A DNA stretch of 42,746 nt from Candidatus Micrarchaeota archaeon (GTDB lineage: Archaea > B1Sed10-29). The stretch lies in NCBI GenBank assembly GCA_964388265.1, contig CAYLXZ010000001.1, positions 24,068 to 66,813 of the forward strand, read 5' to 3'. How positions within the stretch are numbered: the stretch's first letter is position 1; every line of letters begins with the position of its first letter. Positions 21,037 to 33,575 of this stretch are shown one piece after another. Made by a program: the position numbers and the translations under genes. The notes below the pieces were generated by a model. It did no database searches. It saw only the letters and a program-made list of their open reading frames with translations, and had not been told where the DNA came from.

Positions 21037-23724
21037 ATGAAGAAAATAGAATCCATTTTATTAGTAGGTCTGGTAATTGTTTTAGGAGCAGGAGCATCTT
21101 TTGGGTTTACAGGAGGAACAGGCTCCTCTACCGACCCTTACCTAATTAATAACTGCACTCACCTGCAGAATATGAGCAGTGATTTAAACGCTCACTACGC
21201 GTTAGACACGAGTTTTAGCTGCGACGTATCACCCTATAACTCAGGAGATGGATTTGAACCAGTAGGAAACGATACTGTTGCCTTTAATGGTAGTTTTAAC
21301 GGCAGTGGATATGTTATAAGTGACCTGTACATTAATAGGACTGGTGTCTATAGGGTTGGTTTGTTTGGTGTAACAGGTTCTAATGCTAGCATAACTAACG
21401 TAAGTTTAGAAGATGTGGACATAACTAGCTATAGGGATGTGGGTAGTTTAATAGGAGAGAATAAAGGAGGCAATGTTTCTGGTTCGTATGCTACTGGCTC
21501 TGTAAAAGGGAAGGAATCTGATGGTTGGAGTGCTATTGATATCGGCGGTTTAATCGGAGATAATGATGGTAGTGTTTCTGATTCGTATGCTACTGGAAGT
21601 GTAACTGGTTCTAGTAATGTTGGTGGTTTAATCGGAGGTAATTATGATGGTAGTGTTTCTTCTTGTTATTCTACTGGCTCTGTAGGAGGGGATGTTGATG
21701 TGGGTGGTTTAGTGGGAAAAAATAAGGGTGTAGTTTTAGGTTCCCATGCTACTGGAAATATAACCGGAGAAGATGATATAGGTGGTTTAATTGGATATAA
21801 TGTTGGTGGTACTGTTTCTAACTCTTCTGCTACCGGTACTGTTAATGGTACAGACAATACTGTCGGTGGTTTAATTGGAGAGAATCAAGGGAATATCTCT
21901 GATTCTCATGCTACAGGGCCTGTCTACGGTGATCGATATGTTGGGGGGTTAGCTGGGACTAATGGCGATTATTCAGAGGAAGGAAGAATAGAGAACTCAT
22001 ACGCCACTGGCTCTGTAAACGGCTCTAACACTGTTGGAGGATTAATCGGAAAGGTCGGAGCTGCAGGTGATGGGTGTTTTCCAGGTTATGTGGATAATTC
22101 ATATTCAACTGGGAACGTGACTGCTTCAGGTAACTATGTTGGAGGTCTCGTAGGGCTCCTTGATATTGGAAGAGTTTCTAGCTCTTATGCAGGGGGTTCT
22201 GTGGAAGGGAATAACTCTGTCGGAGGGTTAATAGGTTATATGGGAAATGATAATTCCTGCTCTGATGGTGTTGTAAATTACTCTTACTCTACAGGACGGG
22301 TAACTGGTGATTCTAGCGTCAGCGGTTTTGTAGGGTACATAGAAGCAGGATCATGTGATAACAGTTTCTGGGATACTGAGAGTTCCGGTTACACGGATAG
22401 TGACGGCTGTGCTACAGGAAAGAATACGAGTGAAATGAAGCATGCGGCTACGTTTACTCATACTGGTACTGAAGGTTTGGATTCTCCTTGGGACTTTGTA
22501 GATGATCCTTATGAGGACTCTGGATCTGAAGATGTCTGGGGTCTTGACTGTGATGCCGAGAGCTATCCATTGTTAACTTCAATGGAAGAGCAGACTTTGA
22601 ATGGAACATGTGAAGAAATAGGTGGTCCTAATATCTCTTTATCCCGTGTTTCACACTTCATGCACAGAGACGTACATAAAAGTAAGTTCTTCGATGTGAC
22701 TCTCGAGATAGGTTGCTCTGAGGAAGACTGTGGTGATGTGAACATCACCCTCGATCCAATAGAAGGATGTGATGTGATCAATGAAGACTGTACGAGCGCC
22801 TGTGATGGGTTGTTCGTGAATTCAACTAGTGGATGGATCTACGGTTCCGGTTATGATGCTTGCATGGATGAAAATGGAAATTATGCGACTTTTAATGATT
22901 CAACGTGTGACGATCGGTTAGGAACGAGTAGAACAGGAGACTGTGCTGGTATGAATACAGCATCTGGTGCAGCATACTGCCCTAGCTATGAGAGGAATGG
23001 TGAGGAACCTGTTCAACCTGAAAACTGCAGTGGAAACACTTCAGGATTTGATTTTGATAGTTCTTACTTTTCAGGAGAATCATCTAAGAGTATAATACCT
23101 ACAAACTCTTCAGAAACTCCTTTCTACACGAGTAAGTCCAGTAACCCATATACAGTTAATCTAAATCAAGGTGGTTCTGAGTTTGTTAGCTTCATGGTTA
23201 ACGCGACTGGGGAACTTGGATCTGTTTATGATTTTATCGCATCATCCGTAGACCTTTCAGAGACCTATATAAGTGACTCCACAGATAACTGGAATATATC
23301 CATCGTTTCCTCCTCACATGCACCGGAAGTGACATTAAATTCTCCTGAGGACGAAGCTACAAATACAAGCGCCTCACCAACATTAAATATCTCTATCTCA
23401 GACCCGAACGGAGACGAAGTCGACGTATCGTTCTACGATGTAAACAGTGAAAAAATAGGATCAACTCAAACGATTCCAGATGGCTCAGGAACCATCACAA
23501 CTGACTACATGGGTCTAGACTACAACACAACCTACCTATGGTACGTAACAGCCACAGACGGAAACACCACGGTACAAGGCGGACCATGGGAATTCACAAC
23601 CCAAGAAGAACCAGAAGTAGAACAAGTAACCGCAACAACCACAACAGCACCAGCACTAACACCAATACTAGTACTCATACTATTCATAGGAGCAATAGGT
23701 TTCTACATGATTAAGAGAAACTGA
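21037..23724 (+). CDS. Large secreted, C-terminally TM-anchored surface protein with GLUG-motif repeats
   Basis: Signal peptide, GSSTDPYLINNCTHLQNM head, about a dozen xGGLIG/SYATGSV repeats, a Cys-rich middle, an Ig/Fn3-like C-terminal module, a Thr-rich linker and TM anchor LVLILFIGAIGFYMIKRN. Contains many N-x-S/T sequons. Confidence 0.8.
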   Translation: MKKIESILLVGLVIVLGAGASFGFTGGTGSSTDPYLINNCTHLQNMSSDLNAHYALDTSFSCDVSPYNSGDGFEPVGNDTVAFNGSFNGSGYVISDLYINRTGVYRVGLFGVTGSNASITNVSLEDVDITSYRDVGSLIGENKGGNVSGSYATGSVKGKESDGWSAIDIGGLIGDNDGSVSDSYATGSVTGSSNVGGLIGGNYDGSVSSCYSTGSVGGDVDVGGLVGKNKGVVLGSHATGNITGEDDIGGLIGYNVGGTVSNSSATGTVNGTDNTVGGLIGENQGNISDSHATGPVYGDRYVGGLAGTNGDYSEEGRIENSYATGSVNGSNTVGGLIGKVGAAGDGCFPGYVDNSYSTGNVTASGNYVGGLVGLLDIGRVSSSYAGGSVEGNNSVGGLIGYMGNDNSCSDGVVNYSYSTGRVTGDSSVSGFVGYIEAGSCDNSFWDTESSGYTDSDGCATGKNTSEMKHAATFTHTGTEGLDSPWDFVDDPYEDSGSEDVWGLDCDAESYPLLTSMEEQTLNGTCEEIGGPNISLSRVSHFMHRDVHKSKFFDVTLEIGCSEEDCGDVNITLDPIEGCDVINEDCTSACDGLFVNSTSGWIYGSGYDACMDENGNYATFNDSTCDDRLGTSRTGDCAGMNTASGAAYCPSYERNGEEPVQPENCSGNTSGFDFDSSYFSGESSKSIIPTNSSETPFYTSKSSNPYTVNLNQGGSEFVSFMVNATGELGSVYDFIASSVDLSETYISDSTDNWNISIVSSSHAPEVTLNSPEDEATNTSASPTLNISISDPNGDEVDVSFYDVNSEKIGSTQTIPDGSGTITTDYMGLDYNTTYLWYVTATDGNTTVQGGPWEFTTQEEPEVEQVTATTTTAPALTPILVLILFIGAIGFYMIKRN
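21349..22357 (+). repeat. Intragenic tandem repeat array (about 11-12 units of ~26-35 codons, VGGLIG...SYATGSV.G)
   Basis: Periodicity read from the translation. It is coding, not a CRISPR array. Confidence 0.7.
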
Positions 23725-23797: not shown

Positions 23798-25801
23798 ATG
23801 GATTTAATCATAGCGGAGAAACACAACGCAGCCAAAAGAATCGCGGGAATCCTCGGAAACCCAGAGCAGAAACAAAAAGGACCAGTGAAATGCTACGAAC
23901 TAAACGACAAAGTCGTAGTGCCGCTAAGAGGACACATCAAGAACCCGGACTTCCCAGAAAAATACAGCAGCTGGAACAAAACAGATCTAAACGAATTAAT
24001 CAAAGCTCCAATTCAATACCAAGAAACCAGGAAATCCATAGGAAATGCAATAAGACACTACGCCAAGGACGCGGATACACTGCAGATAGCAACGGACTAC
24101 GATCGAGAAGGAGAATCCATAGGCAAAGAAGCAATAGACATAGCCCAAGAAAAAAGACCAGACATACCAATAAAGAGAGCGCGATTCAGCTCACTAACAA
24201 ACAAAGACGTAAAAAAAGCCTTCGATGACTTAAACGAATTCGACTGGAACCTAGCCGACTCAGCAAACGCAAGACGAGAAATAGACCTAATATGGGGAGC
24301 AGTACTCACCAGATACCTATCACTCACAGCAAACAGACTAGGCAAATCATTCCTCTCCGTAGGAAGAGTACAAACACCAACACTCACCAAGATAGTTGAC
24401 AGAGAAAAAAGAAGACAGAAATTCACACCCAAAACCTACTGGAAACCATGGATAAAATGCAGCAAGGATGATGAAGGCTTCAAAGCGTACTACAAGAAAA
24501 GCAAGGTATTCGACGAAGAAAAAGCAAAGAAACTCAAAAACTTAAACGCAGACAAAGCACAGATAAAGAACGTAGACACCAGGAAATACACACGTAAACC
24601 ACCAAACCCATTCAACACCACCAGCTTCCTAAGACAAGCAAGCAGCATAGGTTTCTCACCCTCAACCGCTTTATCAATCGCGGAGTCACTCTACCAAGAA
24701 GGAATCATAAGCTACCCAAGAACCGACAACACCCAATACCCAGACTCCCTGGACCTAAAAAAGATACTTAAACAACTGAAAAACGTGGACAGATACGAAA
24801 AAAGAGCCAACAACCTACTCAAAGAGAAACTAAAACCGACTAAAGGCAAGAAGAAATCCACAGACCACCCACCAATCCACCCAGTAACCTACCCAAAGAA
24901 AGAACTCAACAAAGCAGAATGGAAAATATACAAATTAATAGCAGACCGATTCATAGCCACACTAAGCGACAAATCACTCGTAAAAACAATCAAAACCAAG
25001 CTAAACTACCAAAACCACGAATACCAAACAAAAGGAAGAAAAATAATCAAACAAGGATGGCAAGGAATCTACCCATACAAAAAAACCAAAGAAATCCCAA
25101 TACCCAAACTAGAAAAAGGAGAAAAAGTCAACGTAAGCAAAACAGACGCAGATAAAAAGAAAACCAAGCCAAAACCCAGATACAGCTCCAGCAAGATAAT
25201 AAAAGAAATGGAAGACGACAACCTCGGTACCAAGAGCACCAGGCCAAACATACTTGACAAACTAGCGCAGAGAAAATACATAACCAAAAACAAGAAATAC
25301 AAGCCACTGGGAATTGCCTTCCCAGTAATAGAAAGCCTAGAAGAATACGCCGAAGAAATAACCCAACCCAAAATGACAGCAAAACTAGAGAAAGAAATGG
25401 ATCAAATCAAAGAAGGAGAGAGAAAGAAAGAGGAAGTAGTCAAAGACTCCAGAGAAATGCTAAAAAAAGTACTGGAAGAACTACAAGAAAACAAAGAAGA
25501 AGTAGGAGACAAGATAAAACAAGCACTCAAAGAACAAGAAACCCTAGGCAAATGCAGAGAATGCGGAGGAAACCTCGTGATAAGAAGAAGCAGAAAAGGA
25601 AGCAGGTTTGTAGGATGCAGCAACTACCCAGACTGCACAAACACCTATCCATTACCCAACCACGGTAATGTAAAAGCTCTCAATGAAGAGTGTGAAGAAT
25701 GCGGAGCACCAATGATAAAGATAACAAGACACAAGAAAAAGAACTACGAGATGTGTCTTAAGGTAGATTGTCCTACTAAAGATTCGTGGGGTAAGTCCTA
25801 A
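23798..25801 (+). CDS. topA: DNA topoisomerase IA
   Basis: Toprim (LIIAEK, DYDREGE), active-site Tyr region ISYPRTDN, C-terminal zinc ribbons CRECGG...CSNYPDC and CEECGAP. Confidence 0.9.
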   Translation: MDLIIAEKHNAAKRIAGILGNPEQKQKGPVKCYELNDKVVVPLRGHIKNPDFPEKYSSWNKTDLNELIKAPIQYQETRKSIGNAIRHYAKDADTLQIATDYDREGESIGKEAIDIAQEKRPDIPIKRARFSSLTNKDVKKAFDDLNEFDWNLADSANARREIDLIWGAVLTRYLSLTANRLGKSFLSVGRVQTPTLTKIVDREKRRQKFTPKTYWKPWIKCSKDDEGFKAYYKKSKVFDEEKAKKLKNLNADKAQIKNVDTRKYTRKPPNPFNTTSFLRQASSIGFSPSTALSIAESLYQEGIISYPRTDNTQYPDSLDLKKILKQLKNVDRYEKRANNLLKEKLKPTKGKKKSTDHPPIHPVTYPKKELNKAEWKIYKLIADRFIATLSDKSLVKTIKTKLNYQNHEYQTKGRKIIKQGWQGIYPYKKTKEIPIPKLEKGEKVNVSKTDADKKKTKPKPRYSSSKIIKEMEDDNLGTKSTRPNILDKLAQRKYITKNKKYKPLGIAFPVIESLEEYAEEITQPKMTAKLEKEMDQIKEGERKKEEVVKDSREMLKKVLEELQENKEEVGDKIKQALKEQETLGKCRECGGNLVIRRSRKGSRFVGCSNYPDCTNTYPLPNHGNVKALNEECEECGAPMIKITRHKKKNYEMCLKVDCPTKDSWGKS

Positions 25802-25813
25802 AAGAGTGGCTAG

Positions 25814-27532
25814 TCAAAAATCAATTTTGAGTTTTTTGTCAAGTTTATTTAATTCGTCTTCATCGAGTGGTTTCCAATGGGGTCCGTAGTTAAAGAAGTT
25901 TTCAAGGAATTTTATCAGCGTTTGGCTACTTAAGTAATATACTCCCTCCCTTAGTTCTTTTACTTCAATTTCGAAGGTATTTTCTATTTCTTTCATAGTG
26001 TCTTTTGAATGTCCTGTTTTCCGGAGCCTAACTTCGCAATCGTAAGGGCGTAGATGGCGTGCTAGATTAATTAAATTATCAGTTACTCTTATAGGTAGTT
26101 TAACTAAGTTTGAAGTAAGACCCCGTCCACTTAGACCCCAAGATATCTTTTTCTGTGAGAGAAGTTTTAGTAATTTCTCCTTTTTAACCCCTATAAGACT
26201 ATAAAGCTTTATAAGTGGTTTAAACTGCACTCCACATCCTTTTTCCCAGTAAAAAATCTGAGAAGGACCTAACTCAAGTTTATTAGAAAGCTCTTGTTGA
26301 GTTAAATCCAATTCTTTACGTATCTCTTTAATATCTTCTTTAAGACCATAAACCCTTAAGCTTTCAATATAGCTTAAATCAAAAAATTTTTCATCTATAA
26401 GTTTTTCTGAATTGATTCCTTTGAATTGAGTTTCTTTAGGTCCTTCTGCTAATCTTTTCAAGAGGGTTTTCCTTTTCCTTGGATGTGAGAAACCAATTTC
26501 CCTTCCAAATTGAGCAAAAGATTCACTGTAGATCTTTAAATCCCGTGGTTTACTGATTTTAGAGGTTATACCTAGTTTTTTGAAATCTGATTGGCATTGA
26601 TTTAAGATTTTTGAAGTAGCAGAGGATAGAGATGCTTTCATTGATTCTTTGCTACAGTGCCCATCGGCATCAAACATACCTCTCCAGAAGTATTTATAGA
26701 GTTTTTCAGGGTTTTCGGATAATTTAAAAATCCTTGGTTTTTCTATTTTGTTCTTCTTTTTACCATAGGGGAGGGAGAACCAAAAATTTATAAAACGCTC
26801 AAACCAGGTATTACTTACCCAGAGCTCTACCTTATTTTCTCTCTGCCGAGGATTATTATCTGTGAATTCAATACCGTATTCTTTGTTAATTAAAGAAGAG
26901 AGTTTCTCTAACCATCGCTGTGAGTAAATTAGTTCTTCTTTTTTACCTCCATCTACTATAACCCAATATTGATTTGTGCTGAAACCTCCGTCTCCAAAAG
27001 CACAACCAATGAAGTAAGCTTGCTTCTTTGTTAAAAGTTGTGGAAGAGTTTTAGGAGGGATAAATTTGGTTTTATGAGTAGAGTCGGTGAAGTAATCTAC
27101 AGATCTTAAAAGATTACTTAAGATCTTTTTATCTTCTTCATAGAATTTACTAATAACTCTTAGAGTAAACAGAGGCCATGTTCCGTTTTTGGTCCAAGTC
27201 CTAATTGATTTTGATAATATCTCTTTTTCTGAGTAACGTTCCATTTCTTTCTTAAGTCTTTTGAAGTCTTTAGAATTATAAGATGATGGGAGATATTCCT
27301 TAATTTTATTCAAAGATACACTACAAAAACAGTGAGAACCTAAAGTCTTTTCAAAATCGAATGATTTTACCAGGGACGAGTAGAGATTTAACCTGTTCCC
27401 TTCTAGAAGGAAAGGAAATTTTTTATTTAGAAGTTGGTTTGTAGTTATCATTGCCTTATAGTTATCTTCTCCAAGTAATAAGGGATCCTTCCGGAAGTTG
27501 AGAGTTTCCATGTATAATTTAGAGTATTCCAA
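25814..27532 (-). CDS. Free-standing double-motif LAGLIDADG endonuclease-like protein fused to an XRE-type HTH
   Basis: YFIGCAFGDGGF (aa 173-184) and YFWRGMFDADGHC (aa 281-293). HTH at aa ~403-446: IRKELDLTQQELSNKLELGPSQIFYWEKG. Codons are A/T-ending, unlike both flanks. Confidence 0.75.
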   Translation of the reverse strand: MEYSKLYMETLNFRKDPLLLGEDNYKAMITTNQLLNKKFPFLLEGNRLNLYSSLVKSFDFEKTLGSHCFCSVSLNKIKEYLPSSYNSKDFKRLKKEMERYSEKEILSKSIRTWTKNGTWPLFTLRVISKFYEEDKKILSNLLRSVDYFTDSTHKTKFIPPKTLPQLLTKKQAYFIGCAFGDGGFSTNQYWVIVDGGKKEELIYSQRWLEKLSSLINKEYGIEFTDNNPRQRENKVELWVSNTWFERFINFWFSLPYGKKKNKIEKPRIFKLSENPEKLYKYFWRGMFDADGHCSKESMKASLSSATSKILNQCQSDFKKLGITSKISKPRDLKIYSESFAQFGREIGFSHPRKRKTLLKRLAEGPKETQFKGINSEKLIDEKFFDLSYIESLRVYGLKEDIKEIRKELDLTQQELSNKLELGPSQIFYWEKGCGVQFKPLIKLYSLIGVKKEKLLKLLSQKKISWGLSGRGLTSNLVKLPIRVTDNLINLARHLRPYDCEVRLRKTGHSKDTMKEIENTFEIEVKELREGVYYLSSQTLIKFLENFFNYGPHWKPLDEDELNKLDKKLKIDF

Positions 27533-27634
27533 TATTTAATATTAACCTCAATGTAAAATTAATAATGAATATGAGGTAGGGGATATTTATCTCTTTAACT
27601 ATAATGTATTAAAGGACAGGGTAAAGGACGACTG

Positions 27635-28429
27635 GTGAAAGAAATGGAAGTGGAGATAGATCCAGATAAAAAAATCACGGAAAACGCAGCCAAGTACTAC
27701 GAGAAATCTAAGAAATACAAAAAAAAGATAGAAGGAGCCAAAGAAGCAATAAAAGAAACAAAGAAACTTCTAAAAAAAGCCAAAGAAGAACAAGAAAGAC
27801 AGAAAGAAGAACTGAAGAAAGTGAAGAAACCAGATGAATGGTACGACAAATTCCATTGGTTCAGAACACGGAATGACTACCTAGTCATAGCAGGAAGAAA
27901 CGCAGAGCAAAACCAAGAAATCGTGAAGAACTACATGGAGAACAAAGATCTATACTTCCACGCAGTAGTAGAAGGAGCACCCAGCGTGGTGATGAAAAAA
28001 GGAAAAAAAGCACCAGAAGAAGATAAAAAAGAAGCAGCTCAATTCGCAGGAAGCTACTCATCCGCCTGGAAACAAGGATTCAACACCACAGACGTCTACC
28101 ACGTGGAACCAAGCCAAGTTAAGCTAGGAGCCAAGTCAGGAGAATACCTAGGAACCGGAGCATTCCGAATAAAAGGAGAAAAAAACATGTACAAAAACAT
28201 GAAACTAGAGATAGCGTTCACAATGCTCGAGAAACACATACAGGTCGCTCCACCAACAGCACTACAGAGGAAAACAGATAAATTCGTGTTAATAAGACCA
28301 GGAGACACAGAGAAGAACAAAGCCAGTAAAAAGATAAAACAGAAACTCATAGAGAAATTCAACGTGAAGATAGATCTCAACTGGGTTCTAGAAAAGATGC
28401 CACCGGACGGATGCAGAGTAATCAAGTAA
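27635..28429 (+). CDS. NFACT-R (DUF814) domain protein, a short RqcH/Tae2-like protein lacking the NFACT-N domain
   Basis: K/E coiled coil, then KFHWFRTRNDYLVIAGRNAEQNQEIVKNYMENKDLYFHAVVEGAPSVVMKKG. GTG start at 27635, with an alternative ATG at 27644. Confidence 0.75.
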   Translation: MKEMEVEIDPDKKITENAAKYYEKSKKYKKKIEGAKEAIKETKKLLKKAKEEQERQKEELKKVKKPDEWYDKFHWFRTRNDYLVIAGRNAEQNQEIVKNYMENKDLYFHAVVEGAPSVVMKKGKKAPEEDKKEAAQFAGSYSSAWKQGFNTTDVYHVEPSQVKLGAKSGEYLGTGAFRIKGEKNMYKNMKLEIAFTMLEKHIQVAPPTALQRKTDKFVLIRPGDTEKNKASKKIKQKLIEKFNVKIDLNWVLEKMPPDGCRVIK

Positions 28430-28490: not shown

Positions 28491-28916
28491 TTATTCTATG
28501 GAGTCTAGTTTGTTTTCTATTTTTTCTATTACTAGTTCTGCGTCTTTCAGTGAATTCTCTGCGTCTTCTTCGGTGAAGTTTTTATGAGGTACTGTGATTT
28601 CTCCTTTTTCAATATCCACGTACTGAGATCTGCTTCTTTTCCCTAACCATCTGTAGAGTTTCTGTGTTATCTCTGATTCTCCGAATTGATTAACGAATTT
28701 CTCTATCTTTCCTGGATGTGACTTTGGAATTGATTCTCCTTTCTTGGCAAGGACTGCAGATACTGCTTGTTCCATTGCATCGTAGGATAACTTTACTACA
28801 GAGTGCCATAGTTCTTTTTCACTTTCTCTTGCTCTCTGAAGAGATGCCTTAGCGGATTCTATTGACAGTTTTGCTTCTTCTATATATGATTCAGCTTGTT
28901 TGTCTCTTATATTCAT
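28491..28916 (-). CDS. HEPN-domain protein (PF05168-like), toxin-side partner of the upstream MNT
   Basis: All-alpha, 141 aa, conserved tail LGKRSRSQYVD...FTEEDAENSLKDAELVIEKIE. Overlaps the MNT gene by 26 nt. Confidence 0.7.
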   Translation of the reverse strand: MNIRDKQAESYIEEAKLSIESAKASLQRARESEKELWHSVVKLSYDAMEQAVSAVLAKKGESIPKSHPGKIEKFVNQFGESEITQKLYRWLGKRSRSQYVDIEKGEITVPHKNFTEEDAENSLKDAELVIEKIENKLDSIE

Positions 28917-29553
28917 TTTTCCACCTGTACAGTAGGTCCTGAGGGTCGTATAGGATTTTACTCTCTTTAAGAGTATTTTGAGAGAATTTTGACTCTTTCT
29001 CGAGATTTTCTTTGAAGTTGTTTTCAGAGAAGGTTTTTGCCATGAACATCTTTCCTCCTATTACTTTTGCTCCGTACTTGTCTTCGAGTTCGTCTTGATT
29101 TTGTTCTGTGATTATTAGGAGGTCTATGTCGGAGTCTTCTCTTGCGTTTCCTTTTGCTACGGAGCCGTAGATCGCTATTGCCTTAATCTTCTCTAGGTCT
29201 TCTTGTACCTTACACCAGAGCTTCTCGAGTGGTTTATGGAACTGTGGTTGGGGTATTGACCATATTCTGAGGTGTGTTTTTTGGTTTTCGTTGAGTTCGA
29301 TTTCTTTTTTCTGGATTTCTCCGTCTAGCGATGCTATGAAGTATATGAATTCTTTGAGTTGGTACTTCCAGTATGAACGGGTTTTTCCTTCTTTTTTACC
29401 TGTCTTGGTTACTAGCCCTATCTTTTCAAGGTCTTTGAGGTGTTTGTTCACTGAGGATATTGTTAGGTTCATTCTTTCTGAGAGTTCTGTGGGTGTTCTT
29501 TCAGCGTGCTCCAGTTCTTTGAGGAGCTCTATTTTCCTTTCATTTAGTAGCAT
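28891..29553 (-). CDS. wHTH (ArsR-like) fused to a minimal nucleotidyltransferase (MNT)
   Basis: N-terminus PTELSERMNLTISSVNKHLKDLEKIGLV. C-terminus IAIYGSVAKGNAREDSDIDLLIIT. Confidence 0.8.
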   Translation of the reverse strand: MLLNERKIELLKELEHAERTPTELSERMNLTISSVNKHLKDLEKIGLVTKTGKKEGKTRSYWKYQLKEFIYFIASLDGEIQKKEIELNENQKTHLRIWSIPQPQFHKPLEKLWCKVQEDLEKIKAIAIYGSVAKGNAREDSDIDLLIITEQNQDELEDKYGAKVIGGKMFMAKTFSENNFKENLEKESKFSQNTLKESKILYDPQDLLYRWKNEYKRQTS

Positions 29554-29559
29554 ATATTA

Positions 29560-29612
29560 TAATATTGTCAACTACATTTAAATAACTTACTGTAATATTA
29601 TCGACAATAATA
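29560..29612 (-). promoter_or_regulatory. Promoter/operator candidate: a 12-nt inverted repeat (taatattgtcaa / tcgacaataata, 10 of 12 positions) bracketing the TATA box atttaaat (29576-29583) of the HTH-MNT/HEPN operon
   Basis: The TATA centre is ~26 nt from ATG 29553, implying a leaderless transcript. The inverted-repeat arms were read directly. The AT-rich context lowers significance. Confidence 0.4.
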
Positions 29613-29707
29613 AAATATGTTTTTCTGACGCCCTACTGTTGAACTTTTTATTCAGGTTGTTCTAGACTCCTTGTCTTTACATTTTATGTAAAACTCTACT
29701 AGTGGGT

Positions 29708-30043
29708 TTATTTTTCCTTGAGTTTATTCCATACTTCTTTAGTCCATTCTCGGGCTTTTTCCGTGGCTTCATCTTCGGATATCTTTCCTTCTTCTACTTT
29801 CTCTTTGAACTCTTTCTCGTAGATTTCTCTCTCTATTTTTACCTGTTCTCTGAACTTTTCAACCTCTCCTTTTTCCAGTTTCTTCTTCATCTCTTCAGTA
29901 AGTAGGTTAGCTTCCTCTAGTTTCTTTAAATTCTCTTTATTCAGTAATTTAGGGTTATCTAGCTTCTTTGCCATTTTTTCGGTGATGAGGTTGGCGTTCT
30001 TCATTTTTTCCCTCATTTTATCAGTCAGTAACTTACCGGCCAT
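29708..30043 (-). CDS. K/E-rich helical protein with a thrice-repeated (A)NL(I/L)TE(K/E)M-KKL motif, function unknown
   Basis: The ORF overlaps the radB stop by 11 nt. The repeat was read from the translation. Confidence 0.5.
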   Translation of the reverse strand: MAGKLLTDKMREKMKNANLITEKMAKKLDNPKLLNKENLKKLEEANLLTEEMKKKLEKGEVEKFREQVKIEREIYEKEFKEKVEEGKISEDEATEKAREWTKEVWNKLKEK

Positions 30044-33005: not shown

Positions 33006-33575
33006 TTACAGAGCACCTAAAAAGAAGAAATTAAAGTAAACCAAGAACACGAATACAATCCCCCAAGTAACAGAACTCCAGTTAAACACATCATAACCAT
33101 CCAAAGGAGGGAAAGGAAGCATATTAAAGAAAGCTAGAAAGAAGTTAATTCTAAAACCCCAGAGACCAATCGCGGATAAACCTGTATATAGATAAACCCA
33201 TAAAAAACCCAGACCAAGCAAGATATTCATCACTGGACCTGAAATGCTGATCAATCCATTCTCCCTCAAAGACATATACTTCTCCCGAATATAAACAGCT
33301 CCAGGAGCAGCAAACACAAAAGGAGTTAACACAGCAAAAGCCAGAGCCAATATCAATCCACTTAACCAAGTTCTATAAACAGCTACATAACCAAAACTCT
33401 GAGCAATAGCTTTATGACCAAGCTCATGCACAACAAAACCCAAACCAACAGTTAAAAACAATAAAGGAAGACCAACAGCTCTTCCAGGCCCCTTAGCAAA
33501 GATTATATAGAAAGCTACAGTGATCGTGAACACAGAGATAGCTAGATGAATCAACTCAGTCTTCTCAAAATCCAT
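33006..33575 (-). CDS. M50-family (site-2 protease-like) membrane metalloprotease
   Basis: HELGH in a TM helix and NMLPFPPLDG (LDG motif). Polytopic. Confidence 0.85.
   Translation of the reverse strand: MDFEKTELIHLAISVFTITVAFYIIFAKGPGRAVGLPLLFLTVGLGFVVHELGHKAIAQSFGYVAVYRTWLSGLILALAFAVLTPFVFAAPGAVYIREKYMSLRENGLISISGPVMNILLGLGFLWVYLYTGLSAIGLWGFRINFFLAFFNMLPFPPLDGYDVFNWSSVTWGIVFVFLVYFNFFFLGAL

What the first reader, a model, noticed from the sequence alone, without database searches (positions are those of the whole stretch)
25814..27532. Free-standing double-LAGLIDADG protein fused to an XRE-type HTH, forming a compositional island between topA and the NFACT-R gene
The 572-aa ORF carries two LAGLIDADG-type motifs: YFIGCAFGDGGF (nt 26981-27016) and YFWRGMFDADGHC (nt 26654-26692). 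An XRE-like HTH lies downstream (nt ~26195-26326). A second HTH-like stretch (SIRTWTKNGTWPLFTLRVISKF) sits in the N-terminal 170 aa. The C-terminal segment (VYYLSSQTLIKFLENF) looks like a degenerate third LAGLIDADG-fold half. The gene is not inside an intron, intein or rRNA gene. Its synonymous positions are A/T-ending (AAA, TTT, TCT, CTT), unlike both the A/C-type and G/T-type neighbours, which suggests recent acquisition. LAGLIDADG folds are known to be domesticated as DNA-binding regulators or maturases. The HTH-LAGLIDADG-HTH architecture is not one I can assign to a described family, so it could be a mobile homing endonuclease with an auxiliary targeting domain or a novel regulator or defence nuclease.
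Basis: partly seen in the sequence, partly recalled or inferred. Interest (0 to 1): 0.6.

Follow-up and report, generated by a model that had tools for sequence, protein, structure and literature searches.

The report
Free-standing homing endonuclease beside topA
This gene in a tiny DPANN archaeon most likely encodes an active, selfish DNA-cutting enzyme (a free-standing LAGLIDADG homing endonuclease with extra DNA-binding domains) that copied itself into the gap after the topoisomerase gene; it belongs to an undescribed family whose branches each sit beside a different essential gene.

Summary
ORF 25814-27532(-) has two LAGLIDADG motifs, an XRE-type HTH and the lowest GC in the window. Its likely start is ATG 27511, giving 565 aa.

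AlphaFold (pLDDT 95.5) gives a double LAGLIDADG core closest to archaeal intein and intron endonucleases. The core is followed by the HTH and a third, motif-less LAGLIDADG-like half. A 165-aa N-domain has no clear fold match.

Catalytic residues D181, D290, K259 and K353 are kept in 75-77 of 77 relatives.

The 1.8-kb gene is an insertion. The sister genus has topA and the NFACT-R gene abutting or overlapping at that spot. A third genus carries the gene at the same spot at 83% identity, although the flanking genes are only 63-71% identical. The last ~45-60 nt of topA switch allegiance to that genome, as a co-conversion tract would.

The family has at least ~125 clusters and was found only in DPANN-type archaea. 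It is patchy: 3 of 31 and 7 of 101 genomes. Its clades each lie against one essential gene: topA, ABCE1, TrpRS-type aaRS or class II aaRS. Decayed copies occur at the same sites.

Best reading (0.7): an active free-standing homing endonuclease that spreads by intronless homing. It is a new variant of a known kind. No cleavage was tested.

The parts
25814..27511 (-). Homing endonuclease gene, 565 aa counted from ATG 27511. The stop codon is 25814-25816.
27035..27511 (-). N-terminal domain (aa 8-166). It is mostly helical and conserved across the family (DPLL, LNLY..LVK..DF, Y100, R125). No solved fold matches clearly. It may contain a degenerate XRE-like HTH at aa ~87-147.
26435..27034 (-). Double LAGLIDADG endonuclease core (aa 167-366). 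Motif 1 is at nt 26981-27016, with catalytic D181 at 26990-26992. K259 is at 26756-26758. Motif 2 is at nt 26654-26692, with D290 at 26663-26665. The GFSHPRK motif carries K353 at 26474-26476.
26141..26359 (-). XRE/Cro-type helix-turn-helix domain (aa 392-464). It is inserted between the core and the C-domain, and is absent from the ABCE1-, TrpRS- and class II aaRS-associated clades.
25817..26107 (-). C-terminal domain (aa 476-572). [quoted passage not shown]
25799..27623 (.). The inserted segment relative to the empty site of genus g2. It holds the gene, a new topA stop codon, and ~110 nt of upstream AT-rich, promoter-like DNA that now also precedes the NFACT-R gene. It has no terminal inverted repeats and no target-site duplication.
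25742..25801 (+). 3' end of topA (last zinc-ribbon codons). It is 54/60 identical to G002, against 72% for the rest of the gene. Informative sites in the last 45 nt split 12:0 for G002. This is a putative co-conversion tract and the left half of the homing site.
27624..27670 (+). Right flank at the start of the NFACT-R gene. It is the putative right half of the homing site. There is a weak excess of G002-like informative sites (6:1).
23798..25801 (+). topA (topoisomerase I, 667 aa), the conserved gene whose 3' end this clade of the family always abuts.
27635..28429 (+). NFACT-R gene (264 aa). In the sister genus it starts at, or overlaps, the topA stop.

Best explanation
The gene encodes an active, monomeric LAGLIDADG homing endonuclease that stands alone, outside any intron or intein, and is a selfish mobile gene.

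**Inferred mechanism.**
1. The enzyme recognises the uninterrupted junction between the last zinc-ribbon codons of topA and the start of the NFACT-R gene in genomes that lack it.
2. It cuts there using the D181/D290 metal site, helped by K259 and K353.
3. The break is repaired by recombination from a gene-bearing copy. This copies the 1.8-kb gene plus a few dozen flanking bases into the site (intronless homing with co-conversion).
4. Once inserted, the gene splits the target, so the host allele is immune.

**Accessory parts (inferred).** The XRE HTH, the third motif-less LAGLIDADG-like half and the N-domain are auxiliary DNA-binding modules. They would lengthen or anchor recognition, and the HTH may also repress the gene's own promoter, as in I-TevI.

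**Shown here.** The fold, the catalytic-residue conservation, the insertion with an empty site, the same-site copy that is more similar than its flanks, the flank switch, the patchy distribution, and the clade-specific placement beside essential genes.

**Inferred only.** Cleavage, the exact target, the roles of the accessory domains, and the route of DNA transfer between cells.
For: **Fold and active site.**
- The AF2 model has pLDDT 95.5 and pTM 0.91.
- Foldseek: TliVMA intein 2e-8, I-Tsp061I, PI-PfuI, I-DmoI.
- VIA-align: PI-PfuI Z 18.4, I-Tsp061I 16.4, I-DmoI 14.6.
- D181 is kept in 77 of 77 relatives. D290 is 75 D plus 2 E. K259 is 75 of 77 and K353 is 76 of 77. Every scorable locus copy keeps D290, and all but the N-terminally truncated L027 (gapped there) keep D181; K259 and K353 are each replaced in one copy (L076 P, L064 R).
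- dN/dS between G000 and G002 is 0.12.

**Insertion.**
- G001, G004 and G005 have topA directly followed by NFACT-R. In G001 the two overlap by 11 nt.
- There are no terminal inverted repeats or target-site duplication.
- Logan contigs bridge both junctions.

**Horizontal, same-site spread.**
- The G002 copy is 83% identical, while topA is 63%, NFACT-R 63%, RadB 68% and Cdc48 71%.
- DNA identity is 0.85 inside the insert and about 0.70 outside, with steps at both ends.
- In other pairs this gene diverges faster than topA, for example 55% against 63% and 41% against 56-58%.
- G000's flanks are closer to the gene-less genus.
- The last 45 nt of topA give 12:0 informative sites for G002, against 192:258 for the rest. 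Fisher p is 4.6e-5, with the boundary chosen post hoc.
- Codon usage is foreign in both hosts.

**Family behaviour.**
- Distribution is patchy: 3 of 31 genomes in the phylum and 7 of 101 in a Woesearchaeota-like order.
- Clades match insertion sites:
  - 3' end of topA, 11 loci;
  - 5' end of ABCE1, 14 loci;
  - TrpRS-type aaRS, 13 loci;
  - class II aaRS, 11 loci;
  - single cases at AlaRS, Kae1, XPF and GatE.
- Decayed copies lie at the same sites. L045 has a stop and has lost its C-terminal part. L079 is a 5'-truncated remnant. L083 is frameshifted.
- The host genome also carries four inteins, so homing elements circulate in it.
Against: - No biochemical evidence exists for cleavage or for the target.
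- dS of the gene (0.67) is lower than that of topA (0.90), NFACT-R (1.19) and RadB (1.99), but not lower than that of Cdc48 (0.62). All are near saturation, so timing from dS alone is not decisive.
- Near-universal retention of catalytic residues and a dN/dS of 0.12 would also fit a domesticated, host-useful nuclease.
- The three f1 genera are nearly equidistant in topA DNA (72-75%), so 'gain once, lose once' cannot be excluded on topology alone.
- The co-conversion boundary was picked after looking at the data.
- No empty-site reads were seen in the source metagenome.
- No vector such as a virus was found.
- Several loci are MAG or metagenome contigs, so the decayed copies could be assembly errors.
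Confidence: 0.7

Rival explanations
1. Domesticated LAGLIDADG protein. On this view it is a host-serving nuclease or DNA-binding regulator, comparable to yeast HO or bacterial WhiA. It would use its HTH to act at or near its neighbours, for example by controlling the NFACT-R promoter it now precedes or by triggering programmed gene conversion, and it would no longer spread selfishly.
For: - Purifying selection is strong: dN/dS is 0.12 and dN (0.08) is lower than in topA or Cdc48.
- Catalytic and accessory domains are intact in nearly all of the 77 aligned relatives.
- A true XRE HTH is present.
- WhiA is among the structural matches, at Z 12.9-13.6.
- Many relatives overlap the start of the next essential gene in an operon-like way.
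Against: - The gene is dispensable: it was found in only 3 of 31 and 7 of 101 related genomes.
- Relatives sit beside functionally unrelated genes, so no single partner function fits.
- Decayed copies exist.
- The 83% against 63% contrast and the flank switch need a horizontal event.
- Codon usage has not adapted to the host in either genome.
- WhiA lacks the catalytic residues that are conserved here (PMC3384342).
Confidence: 0.15
2. Old, vertically inherited gene of the family-level ancestor that was lost precisely in genus g2 and in most other lineages. On this view the high G000-G002 identity reflects only unusually strong constraint, and the gene is not currently mobile.
For: - The gene has the same position and orientation in G000 and G002.
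- The dS of 0.67 is of the same order as that of Cdc48.
- At phylum-level distances, the identity of the gene (36-43%) is about equal to that of topA.
Against: - It would make a dispensable gene the slowest-evolving protein in the locus, although in other pairs it evolves faster than topA.
- It needs many independent, clean losses.
- The tight topA/NFACT-R junction is shared by three g2 genomes: an 11-nt overlap in G001, a start 2 nt after the topA stop in G005, and about 20 nt after it in G004. This looks ancestral rather than like a deletion scar.
- It does not explain the switch of the topA 3' end towards G002.
Confidence: 0.1
3. Remnant of an intein or intron endonuclease, or a defence nuclease.
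For: - The closest structures and NCBIfam side-hits are intein endonuclease modules.
- The protein aligns with the MCM intein of the same genome at 23% identity, E 7e-9.
- A HEPN/MNT module lies 1 kb away.
Against: - There is no Intein_splicing domain, and the N-domain is helical rather than Hint-like.
- The gene lies on the opposite strand to both neighbours, so no extein is possible.
- The region has no intron RNA.
- PADLOC hits only the HTH.
- The family's neighbours are housekeeping genes, not defence islands.
Confidence: 0.04

Closest known systems
Archaeal intein-borne LAGLIDADG endonucleases (PI-PfuI, TliVMA/PhoVMA inteins, PI-SceI type)
   Same: - They are the best structural matches: PI-PfuI at Z 18.4 and the TliVMA intein at Foldseek 2e-8.
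- They share Pfam family LAGLIDADG_3.
- They share the Asp/Asp plus Lys/Lys active-site pattern.
- The MCM intein of the same genome has HTH hits on both sides of its LAGLIDADG pair and aligns with this protein at E 7e-9.
   Different: - There is no Hint/splicing domain, and the gene is not inserted in frame in a host protein. It is a separate gene on the opposite strand.
- It has its own 165-aa N-domain and a third LAGLIDADG-like half.
Free-standing homing endonucleases of T4-like phages (Seg and Mob proteins; 'intronless homing')
   Same: - The gene lies between conserved genes and is absent from the same spot in relatives.
- Flanking markers are co-converted.
- The target is presumed to lie in or next to the neighbouring conserved gene (PMC2988022, PMC2790892).
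   Different: - The phage enzymes belong to the GIY-YIG or HNH families and spread during mixed phage infections.
- This one is a LAGLIDADG enzyme in the chromosome of a cellular DPANN archaeon, where the route of DNA exchange is unknown.
WhiA/DUF199 of Gram-positive bacteria
   Same: A monomeric double LAGLIDADG scaffold joined to a C-terminal HTH. Fold match is Z 12.9-13.6 (PMC3384342).
   Different: [quoted passage not shown]
- Here the residues are nearly invariant and the gene is sporadic.
- The HTH is XRE-type, not the WhiA type, and there are no Pfam WhiA hits.
I-DmoI / I-Tsp061I (archaeal rRNA-intron LAGLIDADG enzymes)
   Same: Monomeric two-domain archaeal LAGLIDADG enzymes. Fold matches are Z 14.6-16.4 over aa 166-367.
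   Different: Those enzymes are about 190-200 aa, intron-encoded and target rDNA. This one is 565 aa, has three extra domains and lies in an intergenic site.
Yeast HO endonuclease
   Same: A free-standing LAGLIDADG enzyme related to intein endonucleases, with an added DNA-binding domain (PMC3384342).
   Different: HO keeps Hint-domain remnants, uses zinc fingers and is domesticated for mating-type switching. None of these features is seen here.

Membership tests
LAGLIDADG homing endonuclease (monomeric, double-motif) | [quoted passage not shown] | tested here: met
   Pfam LAGLIDADG_3 at E 5e-11. AF2 pLDDT 95.5. Foldseek and VIA-align match PI-PfuI, I-Tsp061I and I-DmoI at Z 14.6-18.4.
LAGLIDADG homing endonuclease (monomeric, double-motif) | A metal-binding acidic residue at the end of each LAGLIDADG helix | tested here: met
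   D181 is kept in 77 of 77 relatives. D290 is 75 D plus 2 E out of 77. Every scorable locus copy keeps D290, and all but the N-terminally truncated L027 (gapped at D181) keep D181.
LAGLIDADG homing endonuclease (monomeric, double-motif) | Conserved basic residues beside the active site | tested here: inconclusive
   K259 (75 of 77) and K353 (76 of 77) are conserved. That they correspond to the active-site lysines of PI-SceI or I-DmoI is inferred from spacing, not from a superposition.
LAGLIDADG homing endonuclease (monomeric, double-motif) | Site-specific cleavage of a long DNA target | not testable with these tools
   This needs a cleavage assay on the empty-site junction.
Free-standing mobile HEG (intronless homing) | Presence/absence polymorphism at one precise intergenic site | tested here: met
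   The site is occupied in G000 and G002. It is empty, with topA and NFACT-R abutting, in G001, G004 and G005.
Free-standing mobile HEG (intronless homing) | The element is more similar between hosts than the flanking host genes, and its history is incongruent with theirs | tested here: met
   83% against 63-71% at the protein level. DNA identity is 0.85 against 0.70, with sharp steps. The G000-G002 pair is an outlier among all pairs.
Free-standing mobile HEG (intronless homing) | Co-conversion of flanking sequence | tested here: met
   The last 45 nt of topA give 12:0 against 192:258, p 4.6e-5, with the boundary chosen post hoc. The last 60 nt are 54/60 identical. The right flank is weak, at 6:1.
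Intein | Hint splicing domain flanking the endonuclease, inserted in frame in a host protein | tested here: not met
   There is no Intein_splicing hit, whereas the genome's four inteins do hit it. The N-domain is helical. The gene lies on the opposite strand to both neighbours.
WhiA/DUF199 | WhiA_N, LAGLIDADG_WhiA and HTH_WhiA domains with catalytic residues lost | tested here: not met
   There are no WhiA Pfam hits at E <= 1. Catalytic residues are conserved. The resemblance is in fold only, at Z 12.9-13.6.
XRE/Cro-type HTH (Pfam HTH_3) | Five-helix Cro/C1-type DNA-binding domain | tested here: met
   HTH_3 scores 27.6 bits against a cut-off of 23. VIA-align gives Z 6-7.5 to Aca10, C-proteins, SinR and MqsA over aa 392-464.
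Transposon/IS | Terminal inverted repeats, target-site duplication, transposase | tested here: not met
   No repeats bracket the insert. There is no transposase domain.

The most novel reading that the evidence does not exclude
DPANN archaea host a large, undescribed family of free-standing LAGLIDADG gene-drive elements. Its features:
- A four-part architecture: an N-domain with no clear match among solved structures, an active double core, an optional XRE HTH, and a third pseudo-LAGLIDADG half.
- Each clade has evolved to home into the very end of a different essential gene (topA, ABCE1, several aaRS genes, Kae1, GatE). Copies often overlap that gene, so expression may be coupled and deletion costly.

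If true, the copies are direct tracers of recent homologous DNA exchange between genera, and perhaps phyla, of these episymbiotic archaea. They would also form a natural panel of long-target meganucleases with known native sites.
Probability: 0.45. Interest if true: 0.7.

Novelty: new variant of a known kind. Interest (0 to 1): 0.55.

Why it matters
- Free-standing homing endonucleases are well studied in phages and organelles, but hardly at all in cellular archaeal chromosomes.
- This locus gives a clean occupied-versus-empty pair, a second occupied genome with a co-conversion signature, and a testable candidate target.
- It therefore makes 'intronless homing' in DPANN archaea directly testable, and it implies recombinational gene flow between lineages that cannot yet be crossed in the laboratory.
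- The family supplies dozens of natural large LAGLIDADG enzymes whose probable targets can be read from their insertion sites. They carry modular add-on DNA-binding domains, which interests meganuclease engineering.
- For annotation, 'LAGLIDADG family homing endonuclease' is correct but hides the site-specific clade structure.

Tried and rejected
Neighbourhoods came from the search for related loci instead.
- **Viral contigs:** only a 35-residue motif match, so no viral carrier was found.
- **Sequencing runs:** no RNA holder was listed. The three DNA runs come from one study and are kept as contigs. No joint across the insert (empty allele) was seen, and one 85%-identical contig of a relative was too short to classify.
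- **PADLOC and PHROGs:** only the HTH matches.
- **Rfam and ARAGORN:** no intron, ribozyme or tRNA at the site.
- **Repeats:** no terminal inverted repeats or target duplication. A 10-bp palindrome over the putative TATA box is not conserved in G002, so it was dropped as an operator candidate.
- **N-domain:**
  - Foldseek found nothing at E < 3.
  - VIA-align's best Z was 3.0.
  - The ESM Atlas listed only unnamed archaeal clusters below 0.9.
  - The A3 profile against the intein HTH segment gave E 0.36.
  - Its HTH nature stays unproven.
- **hhalign of the C-domain against LAGLIDADG half 2** was negative (E 0.24); only half 1 matches.
- **G008 'remnant'** is just an XRE HTH hit, not a decayed copy.
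- **YN00 dS** failed for the flanks because of saturation, so only NG86 values are quoted.
Full report
**1. Observation**

The ORF 25814..27532(-) is real.
- Pfam finds LAGLIDADG_3 (aa 280-347, E 5e-11) and HTH_3 (aa 401-432, 27.6 bits against a cut-off of 23).
- NCBIfam side-hits to IF-2 and RFC 'equivalogs' fall on their intein endonuclease inserts.
- The gene has the lowest GC in the window: 0.333 against 0.405 +/- 0.021, z = -3.3.
- Its third-position usage is A 0.39 / T 0.32, unlike both neighbours at A 0.51 / T 0.05. The orthologue in G002 shows the same contrast.
- The likely start is ATG 27511 (565 aa), as in the database copy, the G002 orthologue and the family alignment.

**2. Structure**

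I folded the protein with a 77-sequence alignment. AlphaFold2 gave pLDDT 95.5 and pTM 0.91.

- *Core, aa 166-366.* This is a double LAGLIDADG fold.
  - Foldseek: TliVMA intein 2e-8, I-Tsp061I, PI-PfuI, I-DmoI.
  - VIA-align: PI-PfuI Z 18.4, I-Tsp061I 16.4, TliVMA 15.0, I-DmoI 14.6, WhiA 12.9-13.6.
- *HTH, aa 392-464.* It matches XRE/Cro HTH domains at Z 6-7.5.
[quoted passage not shown] The half 1 against half 2 control gives 94%, E 1.5e-7.
- *N-domain, aa 8-166.* Folded alone it reaches pLDDT 91.9, but it has no convincing structural relative.
  - Foldseek E is above 3, and the best VIA-align Z is 3.0.
  - Three weak hints point to a decayed XRE HTH at aa ~87-147:
    - the top VIA hits are all XRE-type;
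    - hhalign to the protein's own HTH gives E 0.0016;
    - a colinear BLASTP alignment runs to an HTH-bearing intein.
  - A profile test was negative.

**3. Active site**

In 77 relatives averaging 28% identity:
- D181 is invariant;
- D290 is D in 75 and E in 2;
- K259 is kept in 75 of 77 and K353 in 76 of 77.

Every scorable genomic copy keeps D290, and all but the N-terminally truncated L027 keep D181; K259 and K353 are each replaced in one copy. By contrast, WhiA has lost these residues and cannot cut DNA (PMC3384342, read).

**4. The gene is an insertion**

The window's genome (G000, 726 kb, 82% complete) has one copy.

- In the same taxonomic family, G001, G004 and G005 (genus g2) have topA directly followed by the NFACT-R gene. 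In G001 the two overlap by 11 nt.
- G000 and G002 carry the gene at that exact point, on the opposite strand.
- The inserted segment is about 25799-27623. It supplies a new topA stop and about 110 nt of AT-rich upstream DNA that now precedes NFACT-R.
- No terminal repeats or target duplication bracket it.
- Independent Logan contigs bridge both junctions.

**5. Horizontal, same-site spread**

- Between G000 and G002 the protein is 83% identical, but topA is 63%, NFACT-R 63%, RadB 68% and Cdc48 71%.
- DNA identity steps from about 0.70 to about 0.85 at both borders.
- G000's flanks are closer to the gene-less genus, at 70-76%.
- Across eight topA-linked loci this gene normally diverges faster than topA: 55 against 63, and 41 against 56-58. 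The G000-G002 pair, at +20 points, is therefore an outlier.
- NG86 values: the gene has dN 0.082 and dS 0.67. topA has 0.25 and 0.90, NFACT-R 0.26 and 1.19, RadB 0.28 and 1.99, and Cdc48 0.19 and 0.62. The dS values are suggestive but saturated.
- The last 45 nt of topA carry 12 informative sites that group G000 with G002 and none that group it with G001. The rest of topA gives 192:258, Fisher p 4.6e-5, with the boundary chosen post hoc. The last 60 nt are 54/60 identical.

This is what a co-conversion tract left by homing looks like.

**6. The family**

- Word-indexed and exhaustive HMM searches find about 125 clusters (at 50% identity) at E <= 1e-30. Most are 450-600 aa and full length.
- Named sources are Iainarchaeota/Diapherotrites, Woesearchaeota, Nanoarchaeota and Aenigmatarchaeota. 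Two MAG records labelled 'uncultured Methanosarcinales' are the exception.
- The family is sporadic: 3 of 31 genomes in the window's phylum, and 7 of 101 in the order of a Woesearchaeota-like carrier.

I took 70 loci from genome and metagenome collections. In the tree built from 51 of them, the clades coincide with the neighbouring gene:

| Clade | Position and orientation | Loci |
|---|---|---|
| HTH-bearing clade (ours) | Convergent with the topA 3' end, often overlapping it by 14 nt | 11 |
| HTH-less clade | Co-directional, overlapping the start of ABCE1 | 14 |
| HTH-less clade | Upstream of a TrpRS/TyrRS-type aaRS | 13 |
| HTH-less clade | Convergent with a class II aaRS | 11 |
| Single cases | AlaRS, Kae1, XPF, GatE | 1 each |

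Decayed copies lie at the same sites:
- L045 is beside topA, with an in-frame stop, DADSS in place of DADG, and no HTH or C-domain.
- L079 is a 5'-truncated remnant before ABCE1.
- L083 is frameshifted.

Clade-specific targets in conserved genes, patchiness and decay are the expected life cycle of homing endonuclease genes.

**7. Relation to inteins**

G000 carries four inteins with LAGLIDADG_3 pairs, in MCM, a PilB-type ATPase, HerA and NrdD.
- The MCM intein has XRE-type HTH hits on both sides of its endonuclease pair: HTH_19 at 7.7e-5 upstream and HTH_3 at 2e-4 downstream.
- It aligns with this protein at E 7e-9, 23% over 306 aa.

So the HTH-LAGLIDADG-LAGLIDADG-HTH layout is shared with an intein module. 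What is special here is that it stands alone, with its own N-terminal extension and third half.

**8. Verdict**

Best explanation (0.7): an active free-standing LAGLIDADG homing endonuclease that spreads by intronless homing into the topA/NFACT-R junction. The HTH, the third half and the N-domain would act as accessory DNA-binding or autoregulatory modules; this part is inferred.

Rivals:
- a domesticated nuclease or regulator (0.15);
- a vertically inherited gene with many losses (0.10);
- an intein or intron remnant, or a defence nuclease (0.04).

It is a new variant of a known kind. The enzyme class and the homing logic are known. The architecture, the DPANN-wide family and its clade-by-clade placement against essential genes do not appear in the literature I could search. 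That search covers open-access papers only.

No cleavage, expression or transfer route has been shown.

Noticed in passing
window 28491-30043: The HEPN/MNT pair (28491-29553) and the K/E-rich ORF 29708-30043 lie between NFACT-R and radB only in G000. In G001, G002, G004 and G005, NFACT-R is followed directly by radB. This is a second lineage-specific insertion within 1 kb of the endonuclease gene.
   Followed up: partly
G000 contigs C15 (L091), C14 (L092), C11 (L093), C28 (L098): The 726-kb genome carries four inteins with LAGLIDADG_3 endonuclease pairs, in MCM, a PilB/T2SSE-type ATPase, HerA and anaerobic ribonucleotide reductase NrdD. The MCM intein has XRE-type HTH hits on both sides of its LAGLIDADG pair.
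   Followed up: partly
whole window (ORF table): Most genes use A-ending codons about ten times more often than T-ending ones (A3 0.5-0.65, T3 0.03-0.1), whichever strand they are on. A minority show the reverse: the surface protein 21037-23724, 33006-33575, 42119-end, and radB in G002. These two codon-usage classes are unexplained.
   Followed up: no
L021-L026, L030, L041-L043, L046-L048 (ABCE1); L028, L029, L053-L078 (TrpRS-type aaRS): HTH-less relatives lie co-directionally upstream of ABCE1 or a TrpRS-type aaRS. Their stop overlaps or abuts that gene's start, which suggests co-transcription and perhaps translational coupling of a selfish gene with an essential one.
   Followed up: partly
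L017, L018, L019, L036, L037: In five topA-linked relatives the endonuclease gene and topA converge and overlap by the same 14 nt. The endonuclease ends ..SIW[N/D/G]* and topA ends ..[S/P]K*. The element therefore encodes the last topA codons on its opposite strand.
   Followed up: partly
L067 3862-6117: The class II aaRS next to one family member carries an N-terminal NUDIX domain fusion.
   Followed up: no
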